DNA from: a virus
Strand: one strand, 5' to 3'
Virus record (IMG/VR): IMGVR_UViG_3300046171_000193
Coordinates: 87,682-151,681 of that record
Length of the DNA stretch: 64,000 bases
Position numbers and translations under genes: made by a program. This document shows, one piece after another, positions 4,876 through 64,000 of this stretch. The notes under the pieces are model-generated. The model was not told the DNA's origin and did not search any database. It saw nothing but the letters and a program-made list of their open reading frames with translations. Position 1 is the first letter of the stretch; every line of letters starts with the position of its first letter.

Positions 4876-6708
4876 ATGAGTACAGGATATATTTTATCTG
4901 TTACAAGAGGACATAATGGAGGAGCTTGTCTTTTAAAAGATGGAGAAATTGTTTTTCACATAGAAGAAGAAAGGTTAACCCGTCACAAATATGATGGTGG
5001 TCCTTATGCATCTTTAATTAAAACCTTAGAATATACAAATAAGATTGATTATCTTGTTATTGCTCATACTCAGCCATTAGATCAATCTGCTTCAGTAGAC
5101 TTTTCTGGTGATGACGTCTATACAGGATTAGCAAGAAAATTAGGATTAATTGAACGACGGAGAGATACTCGCAATCACCCACAAGTGCTAGACTATTCTC
5201 ACATACACCACAAGCTTCATGCCGCTGCTGCTTTTTATAGATCGGGATGGACTGATGCAGTTGCCGTAATCGTAGATGGGGCAGGTACATTTGCAAATAT
5301 GGAATTTCAAAGCGGTATGGGTCCTAGAGCAGAAATAACATATGAAATTGAAAGCATTATTGATTGTGGATATCCACATAAGTTTGCAAACTTATATAAG
5401 CATCATGGCCATGCTGCTGATATTCCTCCAATGCTGACTCGTAATTTTCAATCTCAAGATGAGCTAGGAACTGACTCTTTTGATATGTTAGTATCTGATC
5501 GTGCAGGTATTACAAAAACATATGAGAGTGTTACGGAATATTGTGGATTTTCGGCGATTGAGGCTGGTAAAACTATGGGCTTAGCTCCGTATGGTAAGCC
5601 TAATCCAGATCTTCCTCCTATGTTTGAACCTGCATATATCGACGGAGAGAATTTTTTCTTAGCAAATCGTGGTAAATTTATACCAACATATCCTAATTCT
5701 GCTATTTATGTTGGTGGAACTAATAGGGTATCAGGTCATAATTTGCATAGACAACAAGGGCAGGATCTTACTACTTTAGAAAATAGAAGAGATGTTGCGT
5801 ATCAAGTTCAGCATGAAACACAGGCTCAAGTGCTTAGATTAATTAAAAAAGCAGTTGATATGTCTGGAAAAACTCAAGTTGTTTTATCTGGAGGATACGG
5901 ATTAAACTGTGTAGCTAATTATGAATATTTAAAAGATTTACAAGAAAAAGGCATTGAATTATATGTTGAACCTATTTCTAGTGATGCTGGTACGTGTATT
6001 GGAGGAGCTCTTCTTTGTTATCATTTAAATACTGCTATTACTGGAGAAGGTCGATATAAATTAACTAGAAGTTGCTATTTAGGTCCAGAACAAAAATATA
6101 ACTTAGATGATGTTAAATCTCTTGTTCCTCAAGATTCAGAGATAAAAGAAAATGTTAAATATTCTGATGTAGTTGATATTATTAAAGATAATACTATTGT
6201 GACTATTTTTCAAGGAAGATCTGAATCTGGTCCAAGGGCATTAGGTAATAGAAGTATATTATATAATCCTGCAGATCCTAATGGCAAAGATCATGTAAAT
6301 CAAGTAAAACGAAGAGAATATTTTAGACCGTTTGCCGGTACAATTCTTGAAGAAGACGTTCATGATTGGTTTGATTTGCGAGGCATGGAATCTAGTCCAC
6401 ATATGATGTATGCCGTAGATTGTAAAGAAGGTGTGGGAGAAAAAATTCCTTCAATTATCCACGTCGACGGAACTTGTAGAATTCAAACTGTAAACGAAGA
6501 ACAAAATCCTCACTATTATAATTTGATAAAAGAGTTTAAAAAACAAACTGGAATTCCAGTAATTTTTAATACATCGTTTAATTTAGGTGGAGAACCTCTT
6601 GTGGAAACATTAGAAGATGCAGTTAATACTCTGGTAAATTCAGCGATTGAACACTTATATTTACCAGAGTTAAATGTTCTAGTTACTATTGCCAATTCAG
6701 AGGATTAG
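4876..6708 (+). CDS. carbamoyltransferase (NodU/CmcH/TobZ family), full length
   Basis: EEERLTRHK, HHKLHA, DGAG, GKTMGLAPYG, SGGYGLNCVAN, GPRALGNRS, KRREYFRPFA, NTSFN motifs. Confidence 0.92.
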   Translation: MSTGYILSVTRGHNGGACLLKDGEIVFHIEEERLTRHKYDGGPYASLIKTLEYTNKIDYLVIAHTQPLDQSASVDFSGDDVYTGLARKLGLIERRRDTRNHPQVLDYSHIHHKLHAAAAFYRSGWTDAVAVIVDGAGTFANMEFQSGMGPRAEITYEIESIIDCGYPHKFANLYKHHGHAADIPPMLTRNFQSQDELGTDSFDMLVSDRAGITKTYESVTEYCGFSAIEAGKTMGLAPYGKPNPDLPPMFEPAYIDGENFFLANRGKFIPTYPNSAIYVGGTNRVSGHNLHRQQGQDLTTLENRRDVAYQVQHETQAQVLRLIKKAVDMSGKTQVVLSGGYGLNCVANYEYLKDLQEKGIELYVEPISSDAGTCIGGALLCYHLNTAITGEGRYKLTRSCYLGPEQKYNLDDVKSLVPQDSEIKENVKYSDVVDIIKDNTIVTIFQGRSESGPRALGNRSILYNPADPNGKDHVNQVKRREYFRPFAGTILEEDVHDWFDLRGMESSPHMMYAVDCKEGVGEKIPSIIHVDGTCRIQTVNEEQNPHYYNLIKEFKKQTGIPVIFNTSFNLGGEPLVETLEDAVNTLVNSAIEHLYLPELNVLVTIANSED

Positions 6709-56914: not shown

Positions 56915-57128
56915 ATAGATGATTGAGGATATACAGGACCCCGGGGCGGTACCGGGCGCCTCCACCAAAAGCACAGTTAGATAAGTGTGTTTTTATGGGG
57001 GCGAAATAGGAATCGACTGGTATTTGAGTCTATAAATCACAAATGCAAACAATAATTTTGCACCTTCTAATTACGCCTTAGCGGCATAATTAAGGGGGCG
57101 GCCACTGCCTAGCAACAGAAGTGTGGCG
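56915..57128 (+). ncRNA. ssrA: two-piece (circularly permuted) tmRNA of alphaproteobacterial type; tag ANNNFAPSNYALAA
   Basis: Acceptor piece: T-arm CCCGG-ggcggta-CCGGG, then CGCCTCC-A-CCA (ends 56967). Hairpin intervening segment. Coding piece starts GGGGGCG (56997), giving G3-U70. Tag ORF 57045-57089. Outer boundaries approximate. Confidence 0.93.
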
Positions 57129-57152: not shown

Positions 57153-57386
57153 ATGGAAATCTTAAACAAAGTAAAAGCCTGGGCTGGAGGACTAGCTGAG
57201 GTTGGTCTTAGTTTAGCAGCTCTAGCGATTATACTTGAAATCTTAGGCCTACGTAATATGCCATTTATGCCAGCAAATATGAGCGTGGTTGACAATGTCA
57301 CTGATATGGTATCAGCTATAGGATCTCAAGGTGTAATAGGTTTGATCGCTGTTTGGATTCTATATGAAATCTGGAATCGTAAATAA
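57153..57386 (+). CDS. small two-TM membrane protein
   Basis: Hydrophobic segments; AGGGG RBS. Confidence 0.65.
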   Translation: MEILNKVKAWAGGLAEVGLSLAALAIILEILGLRNMPFMPANMSVVDNVTDMVSAIGSQGVIGLIAVWILYEIWNRK

Positions 57387-57398
57387 AAGGAACGAATA

Positions 57399-57764
57399 AT
57401 GAAATATGCTGCTTTAACAGCTGCTGCTCTACTAACAGCAACATCCATCCAAGCTGCCGAGATTGGTGCCACTGGCATTTCAATCGGTGCTTCTGCAACA
57501 TCTGAATATAACGTTGATGCAGAAAACATGACACTAGAAGTTACTCCTTCAATGGGCTATGAGCTCTGGGGAACAGATCTAAGTGTATCTACTGATCTTA
57601 TGATTTACAACGATGAGTTTGTATTCATGGACGTTAATCCAACAATTGATTTCAAAGTTGGATACGGCATCTGGGATAATGCAGAAGTCTATGTAGAGAC
57701 TGGTTATGATTTAGAAATGGAAGATATGTCAGACGTTGTAGTCGGCGCAACTTTCTCATTCTAA
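57399..57764 (+). CDS. small outer-membrane beta-barrel-like protein
   Basis: Signal peptide, alternating beta pattern, C-terminal VVVGATFSF (terminal Phe BAM signal). Confidence 0.65.
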   Translation: MKYAALTAAALLTATSIQAAEIGATGISIGASATSEYNVDAENMTLEVTPSMGYELWGTDLSVSTDLMIYNDEFVFMDVNPTIDFKVGYGIWDNAEVYVETGYDLEMEDMSDVVVGATFSF

Positions 57765-57772
57765 TATAAATA
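57765..57772 (+). promoter_or_regulatory. late promoter TATAAATA
   Basis: Exact motif directly after the stop codon. Confidence 0.55.
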
Positions 57773-57795: not shown

Positions 57796-57820
57796 GGGGG
57801 CCATGGTTAGCCCCCATTTT
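57796..57820 (+). terminator. GC stem-loop, probable terminator
   Basis: GGGGGC-catggtta-GCCCCC-atttt. Confidence 0.55.
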
Positions 57821-57838
57821 CTATGGATATATAGTACT

Positions 57839-58480
57839 ATGGAATTAGTTTACGCAATAATATTAGGTATACTTTGGAGTCAAGTGATTTCTCACTGGGG
57901 CGCTAGCATACTTTTACATAGACATTATTGTCATAATCAATTTAAAGTACCGGTATGGTTTGAAACTATTGGTTTGGCCATGCTAATGATTGCGTGTATC
58001 AGAACACCAATCGGTTGGATTGCATCACACAGAATGCATCATCAACATTCAGATACAGAAGACGATCCTCATGCCGCAGAGCATGTAGGTTATTGGAAAG
58101 TATTGTTTACTACATGGGATATTCCTAATATACCATCTAAATACGCTAGAGATCTATATAAAAATCCTAGATTAGTTTTTTGCCATAAACATTGGCTAAA
58201 AATATTAATCGTTGTTAATGTCATTAGTTTTATTATTAGTCCTTATTTCTGGATAGCATTTTGCGCAGTACCGTTTGTATTTGCAAAGATAGGATTCGGA
58301 TTGCTAAATACTGTAGGACATAAAGAAGAAGGTGGAGCAAACGTTCCTTGGTTAAATTTTTTTATAGCAGGTGAAGGTTATCATAAAAATCACCATGATA
58401 ATTGGAAAAGAGTAAGGCTGCATAAATACGATACCGCTGGATGGATTGCTGAAAAATTATTTAAAAATGAAAAAGCATGA
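57839..58480 (+). CDS. membrane fatty acid desaturase (delta-9-like)
   Basis: Three His boxes HRHYCH, HRMHH(...DPH), GEGYHKNHH. Confidence 0.9.
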   Translation: MELVYAIILGILWSQVISHWGASILLHRHYCHNQFKVPVWFETIGLAMLMIACIRTPIGWIASHRMHHQHSDTEDDPHAAEHVGYWKVLFTTWDIPNIPSKYARDLYKNPRLVFCHKHWLKILIVVNVISFIISPYFWIAFCAVPFVFAKIGFGLLNTVGHKEEGGANVPWLNFFIAGEGYHKNHHDNWKRVRLHKYDTAGWIAEKLFKNEKA

Positions 58481-59087
58481 ATTACCCACAATAGCAAACT
58501 TTAATCTAAATATTGATTTAAAAGATTTGCAATACGAAGCGCATAAGCTTTACGAAAAATTTACTGATGTACGAACTGCTAATCCAATGTTATGTGACAA
58601 TCATATGGAATTAGTTAAGAACGTATACGATAACTTTGAACAGATTAATCTAACGGAGCCAAGCGAAATACTTCCATATACGGAAAGTATTAAAGAACGG
58701 CTTAAGCGTAGGGAAGAGCATTTATATAATGTTCCAACTGAAGATTATACTAATAGTTATTTTGAAAAGATTGTCACACAACTTAAATCGCCAGCCAGTA
58801 GAGTTCGAATAACCAAATTGGCACCAGGCAAAACAATTCCGTTCCATGTTGATTATGATGTATCGTATGCGGTAAGATGCATATGTCCAATCTATGGTGG
58901 TAAGAATGTTATAAATCTCTTTAGAAGAGACGGTAAACTTGAAGCATATAATTTAGAAGACGGAAATGCATACTTTCTGAATATAGGTTACCCTCATGCA
59001 GTTGTGAACATGAGTGATGCACCTAGGATTGCATTGATGTTTAGTTTGGATGGAACAGATGACCTTACAGATCTCAGATTACGCTGA
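58467..59087 (+). CDS. Asp/Asn beta-hydroxylase-like 2OG-Fe(II) dioxygenase
   Basis: RVRITKLAPG...FHVD...PHAVVN...RIALM. Confidence 0.75.
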   Translation: MKKHELPTIANFNLNIDLKDLQYEAHKLYEKFTDVRTANPMLCDNHMELVKNVYDNFEQINLTEPSEILPYTESIKERLKRREEHLYNVPTEDYTNSYFEKIVTQLKSPASRVRITKLAPGKTIPFHVDYDVSYAVRCICPIYGGKNVINLFRRDGKLEAYNLEDGNAYFLNIGYPHAVVNMSDAPRIALMFSLDGTDDLTDLRLR

Positions 59088-59844
59088 TGGACAATTAAGA
59101 CAACTTTGCACAGATGTTCAGTTTTATGGCTGGCAAATAATGCATGAGCAAGATCTTAACGAAAGCCAACTAGCAGATTTATTTAAACGAATAGGAGACT
59201 GTGAAACTCCTGATCTGTTTATGAATCATAAAGAAAATCCAGAAATATTTAACGTCTCAGGTGAACGTGATAGTGCCGGCAAGAAGATTGGAATGTTTGG
59301 GGATGGAGAGCTGGGTTGGCATTCTAATGGAAACAGTAGACACCTTATTGATAAAATTCTAATCGGATTATATTGTGTTAAAGGTGACGTCAACACTACG
59401 TTAAGTGTTTGTAATACATCAAAGCCATTTTTAGATATGTCTGAAGATGAACAAGAGTATTATCGTAGCATAAAAATTAAGTTAAAATTTAAAAATCATA
59501 CCATGTATAGTTTAGACGAAGATGATCCTGAGCTTGAGTTCATGAGTAAGAACAAAGGTAGTATTAGGCCATTAGTTGGCCAGCATCCACATACTAACGC
59601 CGATTATTTTTACTTTCCATACCATTTTATTTGTGGAGCATGGGAAGGTAAGAAGAAAGTAGATCACGAACCAATCATTGAAAAACTTATGCCAAAAATA
59701 TTTAAAAGTAAGTATATGATCCATCATATATTTCAAGAAGGTGATTTGTTATTAATGGATCAATTCACTTCCTTACATAGAAGAACACCAGTAATGGGAC
59801 CTAGATTATTATGGAGAGTAGCGAGTGATTACTCAAAAATTTAG
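59059..59844 (+). CDS. TauD/TfdA-family dioxygenase (H-x-N variant)
   Basis: GMFGDGELGWHSNG, GLYC, RPLVGQHP, GDLLLMDQFTSLHRR, RLLWR. Confidence 0.75.
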   Translation: MTLQISDYADGQLRQLCTDVQFYGWQIMHEQDLNESQLADLFKRIGDCETPDLFMNHKENPEIFNVSGERDSAGKKIGMFGDGELGWHSNGNSRHLIDKILIGLYCVKGDVNTTLSVCNTSKPFLDMSEDEQEYYRSIKIKLKFKNHTMYSLDEDDPELEFMSKNKGSIRPLVGQHPHTNADYFYFPYHFICGAWEGKKKVDHEPIIEKLMPKIFKSKYMIHHIFQEGDLLLMDQFTSLHRRTPVMGPRLLWRVASDYSKI

Positions 59845-60724
59845 GAACTATCCTTACGTGGATGTCCCCTGTCATTTTGAAGTAGCAAAGGTATTTGACA
59901 ATCAAAAAGTATCAGATACTTATTTTGCTAGAGGTAGAGGTGAGGCAATCGCAAACTTAGAAGAGACTGAAGCAATGCATAGAGAATGGGTTAGCTCTAT
60001 GATTGACTTATCAGACTTTCTATATTGTTATGCCACTCATGGTACTACCGATGCAATACATCATTGGGTTATGACAGAAAACCGCGGTTCACAAGTTATG
60101 TGCTATGGAGAGTATGAATATTCAAGTATGATTGGATTACCTCGTACTGTTACTTGTGATGTGCCGGGACAGTACATGGAGAATGGCAGATCGGCTATAC
60201 CTGGTATTGCATTGCCTGACGTGCCATTGTTTGTATCAATTCCCTCTGCGGCTGATGGAAATATATTTAATCCTGGCTTTGAGAATTGGAAAGTAAAACC
60301 ACCAGTCATATTAGACTGCACGTACGTAGGTTCTACTAAGATTGAAAAAATAAACGTACCATCTACAACAGAACAAGTGTTTTTTAGTTTCTCTAAGGGC
60401 TTTGGCGCAATAGGTCAACGCTTAGGTTTGGTATACACTAAAAAGCCACATGCTAGTTTACATAGATTAAAAAAATATGAGAACTGGAACTATGGATCTG
60501 TTATGACAATGAAATTGCTTATGGAGACATTTACAGTAGATGAAATGTGGAATACATATAGTGGTAGACAGCTAGAAATTTGTAAAGAATATGGGTTTAA
60601 GCCGTCGAGTGTTTACTATCTAGCTACTACAAAAGATGAATATTATAAAAAAAGACGAAGAATGAAATGGAATGATGATGCAAGAATATGTCTAACGCCG
60701 TTGTTTGAAGAGAGAATAAGATGA
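59825..60724 (+). CDS. PLP-dependent aminotransferase-like (fold type I) protein
   Basis: GTTDAI, ILDCTY, FSFSKGFGAIGQRLG (PLP Lys motif). Confidence 0.65.
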   Translation: MITQKFRNYPYVDVPCHFEVAKVFDNQKVSDTYFARGRGEAIANLEETEAMHREWVSSMIDLSDFLYCYATHGTTDAIHHWVMTENRGSQVMCYGEYEYSSMIGLPRTVTCDVPGQYMENGRSAIPGIALPDVPLFVSIPSAADGNIFNPGFENWKVKPPVILDCTYVGSTKIEKINVPSTTEQVFFSFSKGFGAIGQRLGLVYTKKPHASLHRLKKYENWNYGSVMTMKLLMETFTVDEMWNTYSGRQLEICKEYGFKPSSVYYLATTKDEYYKKRRRMKWNDDARICLTPLFEERIR

Positions 60725-61599
60725 AACAAATATTAGATTACACACATGAAGATTTTGCAGAGCTTGTAACTAAAATAGTTGATAAGGGTTCAGCTGTACT
60801 TTATGATCAGAAGTTAACCCGCCAAGAACTAGCAGCGGTTTGTGCTAAAATGGGTAAAGTCGAAGAACTAGATTATTTTATGAATCCAAAAGATAGTCCT
60901 CAGATTAGCATTGTATCCGGTAAAGTAATTGATGGTAAAGCTATAGGAATGTTTGGACCTACTGAACTTGAATGGCATGCAAACGGTACTGGTCGATATG
61001 ACTTTGATGAGGTTTGCGTAGGATTGTATTGTCAAACGGAATGCATTGATACAGTACTATCTCTCGTAGATCAGCGAGCAAGCTTTGCAGAATTATCTGA
61101 AGAAGATAAAGAATATTTTCGCAGCATTGATATTAATTTAAATAATTCTGGACCTCGTGCAAGAATCTGGCGAGATGACGGCGTATATTCAAAGGCTTAT
61201 AAAAGTCAAGGCGAGGCAAGCTTTCGTATAGGGCAAGAACATTACAAAGAAACTATTGATAGACGTCCATTAGTAGCAAAACATCCTGTAGATGGAACAG
61301 AATACTTTTATCCTATGTTTATCTATTTGTATAAAGCATGGGTGAATGATGTAGAAATGACACAAGAAGAATTTGACAAGTTTTTTGACAGGCTAAATAG
61401 TATTGTTACTCGCTCAAAATATATGGTTCATCATGTATTTAGGGAAGGCGACTTATTGTTCATGGATCAGTTAATTACAAGTCATCGTAGAAGTGCTGTT
61501 AAAAATAAAGACAGACAGCTTTGGAGAACAGCTTTTGATTATAGTGTTGCAGTTAAAGATTATACACCGGTAAGATTTGATGAATCAAAACGCGATTGA
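60721..61599 (+). CDS. TauD/TfdA-family dioxygenase paralogue (H-x-N variant)
   Basis: GMFGPTELEWHANG, GLYC, RPLVAKHP, GDLLFMDQLITSHRR, RQLWR. Confidence 0.75.
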   Translation: MKQILDYTHEDFAELVTKIVDKGSAVLYDQKLTRQELAAVCAKMGKVEELDYFMNPKDSPQISIVSGKVIDGKAIGMFGPTELEWHANGTGRYDFDEVCVGLYCQTECIDTVLSLVDQRASFAELSEEDKEYFRSIDINLNNSGPRARIWRDDGVYSKAYKSQGEASFRIGQEHYKETIDRRPLVAKHPVDGTEYFYPMFIYLYKAWVNDVEMTQEEFDKFFDRLNSIVTRSKYMVHHVFREGDLLFMDQLITSHRRSAVKNKDRQLWRTAFDYSVAVKDYTPVRFDESKRD

Positions 61600-62254
61600 T
61601 GTTCCCTGGCCTAAAATACATAAGTTAGATAATTTAGTAAAGGATAGTACTGAAAAGGTTAATGTTCCTTTACAAGAAAATTATTCTATGGAGGACATGT
61701 GGTATTTAGATACGCCTGAAGCATATCCTTTATTTGAAAAACAGGCTAGAATAATCACAGAACGCAAATACAAAAACATCTTAGATGTCGGTTGTAGACA
61801 TGGTCCAGTAAATAAAATACTACATGAAGACTTTGATTATATTAATTATTCTTATTTCGGTTTTGATACTTCAGAAGAACCCATTGAACTCGCAAATGAA
61901 ACATGGAAATATTATGAGCATATAAAATACGAATGTGCTAGTTGGGAAAATAATATAGATGTAGGATTTACTCCAGACGTTATTATATTCAGCGGAGTGC
62001 TATTATATATTAAGGATGATAGTGATCGCTCTAATTTCTTTGATGAGATTATGTTAAAAAACAACTGCGTCAATGCCATAATTCAAGAACCATATCATGA
62101 ACAAAGATATTGGGATGATAGACTTATTCTAAACACAATAACAAATGGCGGATTAGATTTTCTCAACGAGGAGTATAATGTAGATAAACATTACTTAGAC
62201 CTTCCTGTATTTGCTGGAAAGAGAATGATATACGATGTCACTTATAAGTCTTAG
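61577..62254 (+). CDS. class I SAM-dependent methyltransferase
   Basis: ILDVGCRHG, GFDTS, DVIIFSGVLLY. Confidence 0.85.
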   Translation: MMNQNAIDVPWPKIHKLDNLVKDSTEKVNVPLQENYSMEDMWYLDTPEAYPLFEKQARIITERKYKNILDVGCRHGPVNKILHEDFDYINYSYFGFDTSEEPIELANETWKYYEHIKYECASWENNIDVGFTPDVIIFSGVLLYIKDDSDRSNFFDEIMLKNNCVNAIIQEPYHEQRYWDDRLILNTITNGGLDFLNEEYNVDKHYLDLPVFAGKRMIYDVTYKS

Positions 62255-62828
62255 TACCAGCTCATCGGAAAATGCTTTAAACTATAGAGGATTGTTAGTT
62301 TTAAATGAGCTAGTAGATTTAGGAACTATAGATGGACTACACAATTATAATCTCCCAGTAATTAATGTAAATGGCATAGACGAGAAAATACCTGACGAAG
62401 TAAATAGACTTATAGATTATATGCATACCTTTGATCAGTTTATATTCACAGTACCAGAATTTACCGGTATGATGAGCGCGTCTACAAAAAATTTATTAGA
62501 TTGGTTAGTGGTTGCAACTAATATGAATTTAGATCATGGCAAAGGTTATCCGTTTAGTGATAAGCATACAATGATATTTACTTTTACTCCAAGTGGTTCA
62601 GAAGGTGGCGGTAGACACATGCCACAAACCAAAGATATATTTAAGAAGTTAGGCGCTAACGTAATTCATACAGAAGTGTTTAATTACGGATGGGAAACGG
62701 TAGTTCCTGGAAATACTGAACCGTTTAAAGATGCTGCTGATAGAATAAATAATTATTTAAACTATAAACCAGATCAATCACAGGCTTTTAAACAAAAATA
62801 TAATGAATGGAATGATAAGTGGAATTAA
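62235..62828 (+). CDS. NADPH-dependent FMN reductase (flavodoxin fold)
   Basis: STSSSENALN, VPEFTGMMSASTKNLLDW. Confidence 0.85.
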   Translation: MSLISLSTSSSENALNYRGLLVLNELVDLGTIDGLHNYNLPVINVNGIDEKIPDEVNRLIDYMHTFDQFIFTVPEFTGMMSASTKNLLDWLVVATNMNLDHGKGYPFSDKHTMIFTFTPSGSEGGGRHMPQTKDIFKKLGANVIHTEVFNYGWETVVPGNTEPFKDAADRINNYLNYKPDQSQAFKQKYNEWNDKWN

Positions 62829-63220
62829 ATAACAAAGGGCTTTACATATTAAAAAATGGTGATTATGTGCCATATAATATACCACAAGATAAAGTAATAC
62901 TATGCGGAGTACCAGGAGCATTTACACCAGGATGTAATAAACACCTACCAGGCTTTGCAAATAATTTAGATAAATTAGACGCTAAGGTAGTATTTGTTGC
63001 GGTAAACGATCCGAGCGTTATGCACGAATGGAATGTGTTATTTGGTCATCCTGATATTGATGCTGTAGCAGATCCGCTGGCAGTGTTTACTAAAAATATT
63101 AATAAAGATATTGACTTCGGAGACTATATGGGCATTAGATGCAAAAGATATGCTATGCTTATACAAGATGGAGTATTTGTAAAAGAATACGAAAACCCGT
63201 TTATTGAAGGTGTACTATGA
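62819..63220 (+). CDS. peroxiredoxin (Prx5/redoxin family)
   Basis: GVPGAFTPGCNKHLPGF, AVNDPSVM, RCKRYAM. Confidence 0.88.
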   Translation: MELNNKGLYILKNGDYVPYNIPQDKVILCGVPGAFTPGCNKHLPGFANNLDKLDAKVVFVAVNDPSVMHEWNVLFGHPDIDAVADPLAVFTKNINKDIDFGDYMGIRCKRYAMLIQDGVFVKEYENPFIEGVL

Positions 63221-63882
63221 TACCAGGAATTGCAGAGTACGTAGACGTTAATCCACAACACGAATTATTACTTAGTTTGTATGATAAAGTAAGGGGCGTA
63301 CGTGCAGGAGAAGATTTTAATACATTTGGCAAAACTCCGTTCGAAAGTTATTCATTAGAGTATAGTATGACTGGTAAAGATACTGGATACGAACAAGTTT
63401 ACGATCCAATATTATCTCTTCATAGAAAAGTGCATCCACATTATCAGTTTAGATCAACTGGATTTAACACTGCAGATAGTACAGAGAAAGATGTATTCCC
63501 TCATACAGACATAGATCAGAACAGAGAACACAGTCAAGGGTATAATATTATCTACCCCGTACTTGGTGCAAGCCGCTTGGATTATTATGAAACATTAGAA
63601 GATGAAATATGTTTACCTGAAAAGAACGCTCAAGGATATTATTACTATCACGAATTTAAAGCTCAAGCAGAGATGGGACAGGGTACACCTGAGTTTGAAA
63701 AATTCTTAGCTGACCGTAAGATAGGTGAAATTATTATCGACAAACCATGTCTTATTGACACCGAGACAATGCATAGGGTTGTTATCACTGAAGCACCTAG
63801 ATGCGCATTTGTAACAAGATGGAATAATATACCTCCTATTGATTTTCATTCTTTTAAAGAAAGAGTTGAATCGATATTATGA
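63217..63882 (+). CDS. putative double-stranded beta-helix Fe dioxygenase
   Basis: PHTD...NIIYP...PCLIDTETMHRV...R pattern. Confidence 0.55.
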   Translation: MIPGIAEYVDVNPQHELLLSLYDKVRGVRAGEDFNTFGKTPFESYSLEYSMTGKDTGYEQVYDPILSLHRKVHPHYQFRSTGFNTADSTEKDVFPHTDIDQNREHSQGYNIIYPVLGASRLDYYETLEDEICLPEKNAQGYYYYHEFKAQAEMGQGTPEFEKFLADRKIGEIIIDKPCLIDTETMHRVVITEAPRCAFVTRWNNIPPIDFHSFKERVESIL

Positions 63883-64000
63883 GAATAGTAAGCTTGCATG
63901 AAGAACCTAACTTGTGTATGGCTGCGATACAAAAAGCAGAAGAAGAAAGTAAAGGCGACAGATTAGCTAATAACTATACTAAGAATAAATTAAATTTAGA
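63879..64000 (+). CDS. hypothetical protein, truncated by window end
   Basis: ATGA overlap; open to the end of the window. Confidence 0.5.
   Translation, partial: MRIVSLHEEPNLCMAAIQKAEEESKGDRLANNYTKNKLNL

What the first reader, a model, noticed from the sequence alone, without database searches (positions are those of the whole stretch)
57839..64000. Phage-encoded biosynthetic-gene-cluster-like operon
Seen: at least ten consecutive overlapping genes: desaturase, AspH-like dioxygenase, TauD-like, PLP aminotransferase-like, second TauD-like, SAM methyltransferase, FMN reductase, peroxiredoxin, a further DSBH dioxygenase and a truncated gene. Every junction overlaps, implying one translationally coupled unit. 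Isolated 2OG oxygenases and desaturases are known in marine phages, but this oxidise/transaminate/methylate set with its own redox support looks like a pathway. Inference: it tailors a small molecule, a host lipid (e.g. aminolipid or lipid A) or virion components.
Basis: partly seen in the sequence, partly recalled or inferred. Interest (0 to 1): 0.8.

Follow-up and report, generated by a model that had tools for sequence, protein, structure and literature searches.

The report
Mobile oxygenase tailoring operon in phage
A marine T4-like phage carries ten tightly packed enzyme genes (a membrane desaturase, five iron oxygenases, a PLP enzyme, a methyltransferase, two redox helpers and a likely acyltransferase). 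Dozens of related phages and a few predatory bacteria inherit them as one set, so they probably form a single pathway whose product is still unknown.

Summary
Window 57839-64000 holds ten co-directional genes and every junction overlaps. The "truncated" tenth gene is whole, because the contig end joins the contig start.

All family calls hold. The Pfam-blind "PLP-like" gene is a fold-type-I aminotransferase-like protein with its Schiff-base lysine. The Pfam-blind "further DSBH" gene is a 2OG-oxygenase fold with HxD...H.

New points:
- Both TauD-like proteins carry a conserved HxN in place of the HxD iron ligand. This marks a whole subfamily.
- In 22 related viral loci with enough flank, the nine-gene core is present in 19 to 22. 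Gene order falls into at least five block arrangements.
- TauD and the methyltransferase are fused in some phages.
- Gene 10 and a GNAT gene replace each other and never co-occur.
- The core genes are 66-80% identical to those of Pelagibacter phage Mosig, while the DNA polymerases are 42% identical.
- A chromosomal contig of a Bacteriovoracaceae MAG carries six of the genes in a row.
- A T4 late-promoter octamer precedes the operon here and in 12 of 36 relatives.

No scaffold enzyme or precursor peptide follows the operon. The product is unknown. My best guess is an acyl-bearing amino metabolite or envelope lipid.

This scan has already found the same cassette on other DNA (e1-3446452, e1-5336251).

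The parts
57765..57772 (+). TATAAATA octamer (T4-type late-promoter consensus), 66 nt upstream of the g1 start
   Evidence: 11 of the 12 window copies are on the + strand and most are intergenic; the same octamer lies at most 70 nt upstream of the first cluster gene in Mosig and in 12 of 36 related loci, against about 1.5 expected from its density.
57796..57815 (+). GC-rich hairpin followed by a T run (terminator-like), between the octamer and g1. It probably ends the upstream gene 57399-57764
   Evidence: A hairpin is also present in L004, but there it lies upstream of the octamer.
57839..58480 (+). g1: miniature membrane di-iron desaturase (213 aa), delta-9 acyl-CoA/acyl-lipid type
   Evidence: PF00487 42.5 bits. 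His boxes HRHYCH, HRMHHQH and HKNHH align with mouse SCD1, PDB 4ymk. 80% identical to Mosig_00080.
58467..59087 (+). g2: AspH-family (Asp_Arg_Hydrox) DSBH oxygenase with H134-x-D136...H184 (numbered from the TTG at 58446)
   Evidence: PF05118 27.9 bits, sequence. 71% identical to Mosig_00072 and 54% to the Bacteriovoracaceae MAG copy.
59050..59844 (+). g3 (TauA): TauD/TfdA-family protein with WHSNG, i.e. HxN in place of HxD. The distal His and the 2OG-binding Arg are kept
   Evidence: PF02668 53.5 bits. Alignments to ScoE and RdpA. N is invariant in orthologues. The clade holds 17 phage and 2 bacterial rows.
59825..60724 (+). g4: short fold-type-I PLP aminotransferase-like protein (299 aa) with no Pfam hit
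   Evidence: the SFSK motif (K191), D164, N146 and R199 are invariant. Foldseek matches HisC, TAA1 and PSAT, TM 0.45-0.56.
60721..61599 (+). g5 (TauB): second TauD/TfdA-family paralogue with WHANG (HxN). Variable among relatives
   Evidence: PF02668 77.3 bits, alignment A3. Fused in frame to the methyltransferase in L004, L005 and L012. Replaced by an unrelated N-terminal domain in L007-L009.
61577..62254 (+). g6: class I SAM-dependent methyltransferase
   Evidence: PF13489 and PF13649 above cut-off. Always adjacent to a TauD-like gene in the arrangements.
62235..62828 (+). g7: NAD(P)H-dependent FMN reductase family flavoprotein
   Evidence: PF03358 57.4 bits.
62819..63220 (+). g8: small Prx5-like peroxiredoxin with the PGAFTPGC active site
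   Evidence: PF08534 54.4 bits. P32, T36, C39 and R107 are invariant in 18 orthologues.
63217..63882 (+). g9: DSBH 2OG-oxygenase-fold protein with no matching family in Pfam, PHROGs or NCBIfam (H96-x-D98...H186)
   Evidence: Among 50,697 deposited phages it is found only in Mosig. Found in 2 of 301 sampled Bdellovibrionota genomes.
63879..64000 (+). g10: first 40 codons of a 168-aa protein that continues at the contig start (G000:C1:2-385). Last gene of the operon and a possible divergent GNAT-like acyltransferase
   Evidence: continuity. No Pfam or PDB match. The language-model neighbours with a named family are all GNAT. It is mutually exclusive with the GNAT gene in 51 loci.

Best explanation
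The ten genes are one co-inherited, horizontally mobile operon. It encodes a self-sufficient oxidative tailoring pathway for a small, probably acyl-chain-bearing amino compound: a lipoamino-acid or aminolipid-like envelope lipid, or a related amphiphile. The target is not virion proteins.

Inferred roles:
- g10, or the GNAT gene that replaces it in Mosig-type phages, joins an acyl group to an amine.
- The miniature delta-9-type desaturase g1 acts on the acyl chain. It draws electrons from the FMN reductase g7.
- The AspH-like g2, the two HxN TauD-like proteins g3 and g5, and the DSBH g9 hydroxylate or otherwise oxidise the chain or head group.
- g4 transaminates a keto or amino position.
- g6 methylates, working directly with a TauD-like partner.
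- The peroxiredoxin g8 removes peroxide from uncoupled turnover.

In this phage and in Mosig-type phages the operon is probably transcribed from a late promoter, so the product would appear late in infection.

Shown: the gene families, the catalytic motifs, co-inheritance, the fusion and the mobility. Inferred: the substrate class, the order of steps and the timing.
For: Coherence of the set:
- Nine-gene core present in 19-22 of 22 related loci with enough flank.
- Recurring blocks Fred-Prx-DSBH9, TauD-MT and AT-TauB across at least five arrangements.
- TauD-MT is one 488-aa ORF in three contigs.
- G10 or GNAT is present in 47 of 51 loci, and never both.
- Core genes are 66-80% identical to Mosig, against 42% for DNA polymerase.
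- The closest deposited relative by UvsX, phage C48C1, lacks the cluster.
- Six of the genes lie in a row on a 118-kb Bacteriovoracaceae contig that also carries AcrB, a 2-oxoacid dehydrogenase E1 and RNase Y.

Small-molecule or lipid leaning:
- g1 has intact desaturase His boxes that align with SCD1.
- The related bacterial module adds a FA_hydroxylase-family enzyme.
- The closest solved relatives of the HxN TauD family act on small anionic substrates, two of them with alkyl chains: ScoE on an amino fatty acid and AtsK on alkyl sulfates. RdpA/TfdA and TauD are the others.
- g4 is a HisC-like aminotransferase fold.
- From general knowledge, the AspH family also contains the lipid hydroxylases LpxO and OlsC.

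Timing and expression:
- TATAAATA lies upstream here and in 12 of 36 relatives, with none inside the operon.
- Contigs from RNA libraries of three studies cover most of the operon at low depth.
Against: - No substrate or product has been observed.
- No recognised acyl-ACP or acyl-CoA transferase is present. The GNAT assignment of g10 rests on language-model neighbours with low shared-feature counts and a weak hhalign match (E 6e-4, probability 28%). Direct comparison with the Mosig GNAT failed.
- g2 gave no NCBIfam match at E<=0.01, so nothing ties it specifically to the lipid hydroxylases of its family.
- Both TauD-like proteins lack the canonical Asp ligand, so their chemistry is uncertain.
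- Late promoters, and the position next to tail-fibre genes in Mosig, would also fit virion modification.
- Class IV relatives have a sigma-70-like promoter instead.
- The RNA-library coverage could be DNA carry-over.
Confidence: 0.45

Rival explanations
1. The operon modifies proteins or a peptide after translation, either virion or tail-fibre proteins or a RiPP-like peptide. AspH-like, DSBH and TauD-like enzymes would hydroxylate residues, and the methyltransferase and GNAT would decorate them.
For: - Late-promoter octamer upstream.
- In Mosig the cluster abuts the tail-fibre genes.
- The structural neighbours of g9 include protein hydroxylases (prolyl hydroxylases, JMJD5, AspH).
- The related bacterial module has a radical SAM enzyme, an HTTM-domain protein and a conserved 90-aa protein.
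Against: - A membrane fatty-acid desaturase, a HisC-like aminotransferase and an FMN reductase have no obvious role on proteins.
- In this phage the operon lies in the replication-side variable region, far from the fibre genes.
- The 90-aa protein has no homologue in this genome.
- The nearest solved TauD relatives act on small molecules.
Confidence: 0.2
2. There is no single pathway. The genes are a packed set of independent host-fitness genes (membrane fluidity, oxidative-stress defence, assorted oxygenases) that are merely co-transcribed.
For: - Gene order differs among relatives and several genes come and go: TauB, DSBH160, X262 and AspH2.
- Single desaturases are known cyanophage auxiliary genes (PMC5776448).
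Against: - The nine-gene content is kept through at least five rearrangements and across phage lineages with 42% polymerase identity.
- There is a TauD-MT fusion.
- G10 and GNAT exclude each other.
- The same families recur together in Bdellovibrionota chromosomes.
Confidence: 0.15
3. The operon scavenges organosulfur, like the bacterial sulfate-starvation set (general knowledge: TauD or AtsK, the SsuE-type FMN reductase and a peroxiredoxin such as LsfA). It would release sulfur from sulfonates or sulfate esters for the sulfur-auxotrophic host.
For: TauD-family, FMN_red and Redoxin genes lie together. TauD and AtsK are among the nearest solved relatives.
Against: - No SsuD-type monooxygenase and no transporter are present.
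- The TauD-like proteins have HxN instead of HxD and score far below the taurine dioxygenase equivalog cut-off (16.9 against 313 bits).
- The desaturase, aminotransferase, methyltransferase and two further DSBH enzymes are left unexplained.
- From general knowledge, SAR11 cannot reduce sulfite.
Confidence: 0.07
4. The enzymes hypermodify phage DNA or a nucleotide precursor. AlkB/TET-like DSBH oxidation would be followed by amination, methylation or acylation.
For: The top Foldseek matches of g9 include ABH2 and other AlkB homologues. PLP enzymes, methyltransferases and acetyltransferases occur in known phage base-hypermodification pathways (general knowledge).
Against: - The g9 matches are generic DSBH (Z 9-11 across many subfamilies).
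- The cluster has no kinase, glycosylase-fold transferase or nucleotide-binding enzyme.
- A membrane desaturase does not fit.
- The operon is also found in a bacterial chromosome.
Confidence: 0.05

Closest known systems
Gene cluster Mosig_00072 to Mosig_00081 of Pelagibacter phage Mosig EXVC030M (MT647606.1)
   Same: Same families: desaturase, two AspH-like, TauD-like, PLP aminotransferase-like, FMN reductase, peroxiredoxin, the g9-type DSBH protein and a methyltransferase. Identity is 32-80%, with a late-promoter octamer upstream.
   Different: The order is rearranged in blocks. There is one TauD-like gene instead of two, a GNAT gene in place of g10 and an extra AspH-like gene. The cluster sits next to tail-fibre genes and back to back with a radical-SAM/DegT/carbamoyltransferase cluster. 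It is annotated gene by gene, and the genome announcement does not mention it as a unit.
Bacterial aminolipid and lipid A tailoring enzymes (general knowledge: OlsB N-acyltransferase, OlsC and LpxO of the AspH family, OlsE of the FA_hydroxylase family, OlsG methyltransferase)
   Same: The same enzyme families are combined: an AspH-family hydroxylase, a methyltransferase, a possible GNAT-fold acyltransferase and membrane di-iron lipid oxidases. The FA_hydroxylase occurs in the bacterial sister module.
   Different: No orthology is shown: NCBIfam gave no match for g2, g9 or g10. TauD-like proteins, a PLP aminotransferase, an FMN reductase and a peroxiredoxin are not part of the known systems.
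Cyanophage lipid desaturases (vFADs; PMC5776448)
   Same: A phage-encoded membrane fatty-acid desaturase of the DesC/delta-9 type in a marine T4-like phage.
   Different: Those are described as single auxiliary genes. In one search the terms 'oxygenase', 'hydroxylase' and 'neighbo' did not occur in that paper. Here the desaturase is a 213-aa miniature inside a ten-gene operon, and it has no detectable homologue in deposited cyanophages.
TauD/TfdA group of Fe(II)/2OG dioxygenases (RdpA, TfdA, ScoE, TauD, AtsK)
   Same: Full-length profile match (E 1e-29 to 1e-17). The distal His, the 2OG-binding Arg and the Thr are conserved.
   Different: The metal-binding Asp is replaced by an invariant Asn. 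This holds for 73 of the roughly 104 full-length proteins among the best 150 representatives. I found no paper describing such a variant.

Membership tests
TauD/TfdA Fe(II)/2-oxoglutarate dioxygenases (PF02668) | Sequence profile match over the whole domain | tested here: met
   53.5 and 77.3 bits against a cut-off of 27. Profile against PDB gives E 1e-29 to RdpA.
TauD/TfdA Fe(II)/2-oxoglutarate dioxygenases (PF02668) | 2-His-1-carboxylate facial triad (HxD/E...H) | tested here: not met
   g3 has WHSNG and g5 has WHANG. The Asn aligns with the ligand Asp of ScoE and RdpA and is invariant in orthologues. The distal His is present.
TauD/TfdA Fe(II)/2-oxoglutarate dioxygenases (PF02668) | 2OG C5-carboxylate-binding Arg after the distal His | tested here: met
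   H255 and R269 (g5 numbering) are invariant in A3, and the corresponding H282 and R297 (P0370 numbering) are invariant across the 51 sequences of A4.
TauD/TfdA Fe(II)/2-oxoglutarate dioxygenases (PF02668) | 2OG-dependent oxidation of a substrate | not testable with these tools
   Needs an enzyme assay.
Membrane fatty-acid desaturases (PF00487, delta-9 acyl-CoA type) | Three conserved His boxes | tested here: met
   HRHYCH, HRMHHQH and HKNHH align with SCD1, PDB 4ymk. Pfam 42.5 bits.
Membrane fatty-acid desaturases (PF00487, delta-9 acyl-CoA type) | Equivalog-level similarity to a named desaturase | tested here: not met
   NCBIfam DesA-family model gives 34 bits against a cut-off of 400. The protein has only 213 aa.
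Aspartyl/asparaginyl beta-hydroxylase family (PF05118, includes LpxO and OlsC) | Profile match and iron-binding His residues | tested here: met
   27.9 bits against a cut-off of 22.6. H134-x-D136...H184 is read from the sequence.
Aspartyl/asparaginyl beta-hydroxylase family (PF05118, includes LpxO and OlsC) | Assignment to the lipid-hydroxylase branch (LpxO/OlsC) rather than the protein-hydroxylase branch | tested here: inconclusive
   No NCBIfam match at E<=0.01. PDB sequence search gave only weak cupin matches.
Fold-type I PLP aminotransferases (class I/II, HisC-like) | Fold, Schiff-base Lys, pyridine-N Asp | tested here: met
   Foldseek probability 1.0 and TM 0.45-0.56 to HisC, TAA1 and PSAT. 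K191 in SFSK, D164 and N146 are invariant. The profile aligns the motif to HisC.
Fold-type I PLP aminotransferases (class I/II, HisC-like) | Pfam PF00155 match above threshold | tested here: not met
   No hit for the window protein. The Mosig orthologue gives 18.3 bits against a cut-off of 19.7.
Peroxiredoxin (Redoxin PF08534, Prx5-like) | PxxxTxxC peroxidatic motif plus a conserved Arg | tested here: met
   54.4 bits. P32, T36, C39 and R107 are invariant.
NAD(P)H-dependent FMN reductase (PF03358) | Profile match | tested here: met
   57.4 bits against a cut-off of 24.
GNAT acyl/acetyltransferases (for g10) | Profile or fold match to the GNAT superfamily | tested here: inconclusive
   No Pfam or PDB hit. 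All ten best named Atlas neighbours are GNAT but share few features (114-140). hhalign against the Mosig GNAT is negative. g10 is mutually exclusive with the GNAT gene across loci.
Natural-product biosynthetic gene cluster | A core scaffold-forming enzyme (NRPS, PKS, terpene synthase) or a RiPP precursor peptide next to the tailoring genes | tested here: not met
   The operon ends with g10 and the strand then flips. The next 10 kb hold QueC-like, ligase-like, DUF932, AspH-like and DUF6267 genes. The 90-aa protein of the bacterial module has no homologue in this genome.

The most novel reading that the evidence does not exclude
The cassette makes a previously unknown, heavily oxidised and methylated lipoamino-acid-type compound. 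Marine T4-like phages and predatory Bdellovibrionota both deploy it against the envelope of Gram-negative prey, for example to weaken or re-label the outer membrane late in attack. Its HxN TauD-like enzymes would represent a new 2-His-plus-Asn variant of Fe/2OG chemistry.
Probability: 0.12. Interest if true: 0.9.

Novelty: new variant of a known kind. Interest (0 to 1): 0.62.

Why it matters
Phage auxiliary genes are usually treated one at a time. Here a complete multi-enzyme set travels as a unit among abundant marine myophages and is near-identical in seawater runs from at least ten study codes. It also occurs in Mosig, a cultured phage of Pelagibacter ubique HTCC1062, so its product can be looked for directly.

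It could reveal how phages remodel the envelope or metabolite pool of the ocean's most abundant bacteria. It also offers a natural test case for a TauD subfamily that has replaced its iron-binding Asp with Asn. The sporadic presence in predatory bacteria hints at a shared tool of two kinds of bacterial predators, or at gene flow between them.

Tried and rejected
- **Prx-DSBH9 complex:** the prediction for g8 with g9 gave no verdict (score 0.01).
- **g10 fold:** Pfam (single and per member), a PDB profile search and hhalign against the Mosig GNAT gave nothing. Its 138 homologues carry no Pfam domain, apart from one 327-aa fusion with PF01467.
- **L013 flanking proteins:** the 221-aa and 202-aa proteins of phage L013 are not g9 homologues by hhalign.
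- **Direction of transfer:** the TauD tree leaves the bacterial TauA copies in an unresolved polytomy with the phage ones.
- **Is the bacterial contig a mis-binned T4-like phage?** A Gp23 capsid search in the five MAGs rang nowhere, but the controls were also silent, so this shows little. The housekeeping genes on the 118-kb contig are the real argument.
- **Wide bacterial search:** an alignment of 51 TauD-like proteins was too diverse for the genome scan. The successful scan used one peptide pattern only, so the list of bacterial holders is a lower bound.
- **Literature:** the pelagimyophage comparative paper (PMC7029224), the Mosig announcement (PMC7892664) and the cyanophage desaturase paper (PMC5776448) do not describe this cluster. 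No paper on an HxN TauD variant was found.
- **ARAGORN** did not call the neighbouring tmRNA that Rfam finds.
- **Carnitine-type logic** (two TauD-family oxygenases, a PLP enzyme and a methyltransferase) was considered. It was dropped for lack of an aldehyde dehydrogenase and of any orthology evidence.

Full report
**Setting.** The window is the last 64 kb of a 151,681-base IMG/VR virus record. It is a T4-like phage: UvsX, a gp41-type helicase and ThyX lie just upstream of the finding. A permuted alphaproteobacterial-type tmRNA lies at 56915-57089. Its closest deposited relative by UvsX is the uncultured Kyanoviridae phage C48C1 at 78% identity. The contig end and start abut without a gap in the near-identical contig L003, so the genome is closed and the break falls inside the last gene of the finding.

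**The observation.** Ten + strand genes run from 57839 to the contig end and on to G000:C1:385. Every junction overlaps, by 4 to 38 nt, and no opposite-strand ORF exceeds 75 aa.

Pfam places seven genes above the curated cut-offs:
- a fatty-acid desaturase
- an Asp_Arg_Hydrox protein
- two TauD proteins
- a SAM methyltransferase
- an FMN reductase
- a Redoxin

The two Pfam-blind genes were folded from alignments of metagenomic homologues.
- g4 is a short fold-type-I aminotransferase-like protein. Its SFSK lysine, the pyridine-binding Asp and the Asn are invariant.
- g9 is a DSBH 2OG-oxygenase fold with an invariant HxD...H. It is equally close to prolyl hydroxylases, AlkB homologues and AspH, so no subfamily can be named.

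The desaturase has the three His boxes of the delta-9 acyl-CoA type in only 213 residues. The peroxiredoxin keeps Pro, Thr, Cys and Arg.

**The HxN variant.** The Asn aligns with the iron-binding Asp of ScoE and RdpA. It is invariant in orthologues of both paralogues, which are only 36-38% identical to each other.

A profile search of 1.84 billion representatives found 736 relatives. Among the best 150, 73 have HxN...H, 20 HxD, 6 HxA and 1 HxG. The distal His, the 2OG-binding Arg and the Thr are kept. Human AspH shows that 2OG oxygenases can work without the carboxylate ligand (abstracts of PMC13168262 and PMC10915816). Activity is therefore plausible but unproven.

**Is it a unit?** Two scans of IMG/VR with g9 gave about 50 loci with g9 at 50-100% identity. 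I labelled genes by tblastn.

In the 22 loci with enough flank:

| Gene | Loci with it (of 22) |
|---|---|
| PLP gene | 22 |
| g9 | 22 |
| peroxiredoxin | 21 |
| desaturase | 19 |
| AspH-like | 19 |
| TauA | 19 |
| methyltransferase | 19 |
| FMN reductase | 19 |
| g10 (8) or GNAT (11), never both | 19 |
| TauB | 16 |

- Order falls into at least five arrangements. They are built from recurring blocks: FMN reductase-peroxiredoxin-g9, TauD-methyltransferase, and PLP-TauB.
- In three contigs TauB and the methyltransferase are one 488-aa ORF.
- Over all 51 loci, g10 and GNAT never co-occur, and one of them is present in 47.

The cultured Pelagibacter phage Mosig has the same set. Identities are:

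| Gene | Identity to Mosig |
|---|---|
| g1 | 80% |
| g2 | 71% |
| g3 | 69% |
| g9 | 66% |
| DNA polymerase | 42% |

C48C1 lacks the cluster. In Mosig the cluster lies beside tail-fibre genes; here it lies after the replication genes. So the content is conserved, the order is shuffled, and the position moves. That is the pattern of a mobile functional cassette, not of a random island.

**Cellular counterparts.** A pattern scan of 185,579 species genomes with the TauD-HxN motif returned six loci. Five are labelled Bdellovibrionota and one only 'bacterium'.
- One is a 118-kb Bacteriovoracaceae contig that also carries AcrB, an outer-membrane efflux protein, a 2-oxoacid dehydrogenase E1 and RNase Y. 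It holds AspH (54%), TauA (56%), FMN reductase (33%), g9 (27%), methyltransferase (41%) and g10 (42%) in a row, next to a radical SAM enzyme, a further TauD and a further AspH.
- Large contigs of 0.35 to 2.35 Mb, and a distant phage (L013), carry a sister module. It has AspH, a 202-aa protein, a desaturase, a FA_hydroxylase, a TauD (HxN), a cupin-like protein, a radical SAM enzyme, an HTTM-domain protein and a conserved 90-aa protein.
- The g9 profile hits only 2 of 301 sampled genomes of that phylum, so the presence is sporadic.
- In a TauD tree the two bacterial TauA copies fall in the same well-supported clade as 17 phage copies, but the branching inside it is unresolved. The direction of transfer is open.

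**Transcription.** The T4 late-promoter octamer TATAAATA lies 66 nt before g1. Eleven of the twelve copies in the window are on the + strand, mostly in intergenic gaps.

The octamer also lies just upstream of the first cluster gene in Mosig and in 12 of 36 related loci with an upstream boundary. About 1.5 would be expected from its density. It is absent inside the operon in all loci but one.

In other loci the operon simply continues upstream. Class IV loci have a sigma-70-like TTGACA-17-TATAAG instead. Late expression is therefore likely here but not universal.

Contigs from RNA libraries of three studies cover most of the operon at depth 2-6, against 27-195 on the neighbouring tmRNA and small ORF. 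This is compatible with transcription but does not exclude DNA carry-over.

**What it does.** No scaffold enzyme or precursor peptide follows. After g10 the strand flips to QueC-like and other genes. The evidence leans to a small amphiphilic substrate rather than proteins:
- a bona fide membrane desaturase, with a flavin reductase that could feed it
- a FA_hydroxylase in the sister module
- TauD relatives whose solved members act on small anionic compounds, including an amino fatty acid (ScoE) and alkyl sulfates (AtsK)
- a HisC-like aminotransferase
- a methyltransferase physically fused to a TauD-like enzyme in some phages
- a terminal gene that swaps with a GNAT and whose only named language-model neighbours are GNATs

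I therefore propose an acylated amino compound that is desaturated, hydroxylated, transaminated and methylated, with the peroxiredoxin mopping up peroxide. This agrees with two earlier follow-up notes of this scan on other DNA (e1-3446452, e1-5336251). Those are not independent evidence.

Protein or peptide modification is the main rival. It is favoured by the late promoter, the fibre neighbourhood in Mosig, and the radical SAM, HTTM and small-protein content of the bacterial module. A mere collection of independent genes, sulfonate scavenging and DNA hypermodification are less likely, for the reasons listed under the rivals.

**Verdict.** The finding is real, and the pathway idea is supported by comparative genomics. 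The 'BGC' label and any specific substrate are not. The cassette does not appear to be described in the literature I could search. This scan has seen it before. It is testable in the Mosig/HTCC1062 system.

Noticed in passing
window 56915-57089 and 57153-57386: Rfam finds a permuted alphaproteobacterial-type tmRNA (83 bits) that ARAGORN misses. RNA-library contigs pile up on it and on the small ORF 57153-57386 (depth 27-195, against 2-6 on the operon). One contig ends at 57388 with a poly(A) tail.
   Followed up: partly
window 64000 joined to G000:C1:1: The contig end and start are contiguous in the near-identical contig L003 (gap 0). The 151,681-base record is therefore a closed, circularly permuted genome, although it is labelled linear and 83% complete.
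   Followed up: yes
L003:4585-5868: The near-identical phage from another sample shows frame breaks inside the desaturase and the AspH-like gene. These are either sequencing errors or decaying copies.
   Followed up: no
L016:6146-15082; L019:8001-13643; L020:7557-16565; L013:6500-11288: Large Bdellovibrionota-type contigs and a distant phage carry a sister module. It has a conserved 90-aa protein, AspH, a 202-aa protein, a desaturase, a FA_hydroxylase, an HxN TauD, a cupin-like 238-aa protein, a 581-aa radical SAM enzyme and an HTTM-domain protein. The 202-aa protein may be remotely related to g10 (hhalign E 6e-4, probability 28%).
   Followed up: partly
proteins P0206-P0355 (best 150 representatives of the TauD-like family): At the carboxylate position, 6 proteins have Ala and 1 has Gly, the pattern of 2OG halogenases, beside 73 Asn and 20 Asp.
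   Followed up: no
L001:1-7323 (Mosig); L072:11000-18663; L074:10000-18651: A second cluster often lies back to back with, or next to, the oxygenase operon. It has three radical SAM genes, a DegT aminotransferase, a nitroreductase, a carbamoyltransferase and a methyltransferase. In this phage its homologues are scattered (window 5749-6657; G000:C1:37028-41206).
   Followed up: partly
window 57399-57764: A 121-aa protein with a clear signal peptide and a Gly/Thr/Ser-rich, beta-like sequence lies just upstream of the operon. Homologues at 33-37% identity occur near the cluster in several relatives.
   Followed up: no
L052:2680-2840; L075:6010-6172: In one arrangement class the cluster is preceded by TTGACA-17-TATAAG, a host sigma-70-like promoter, instead of the late octamer. 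Timing may therefore differ between phage lineages.
   Followed up: no
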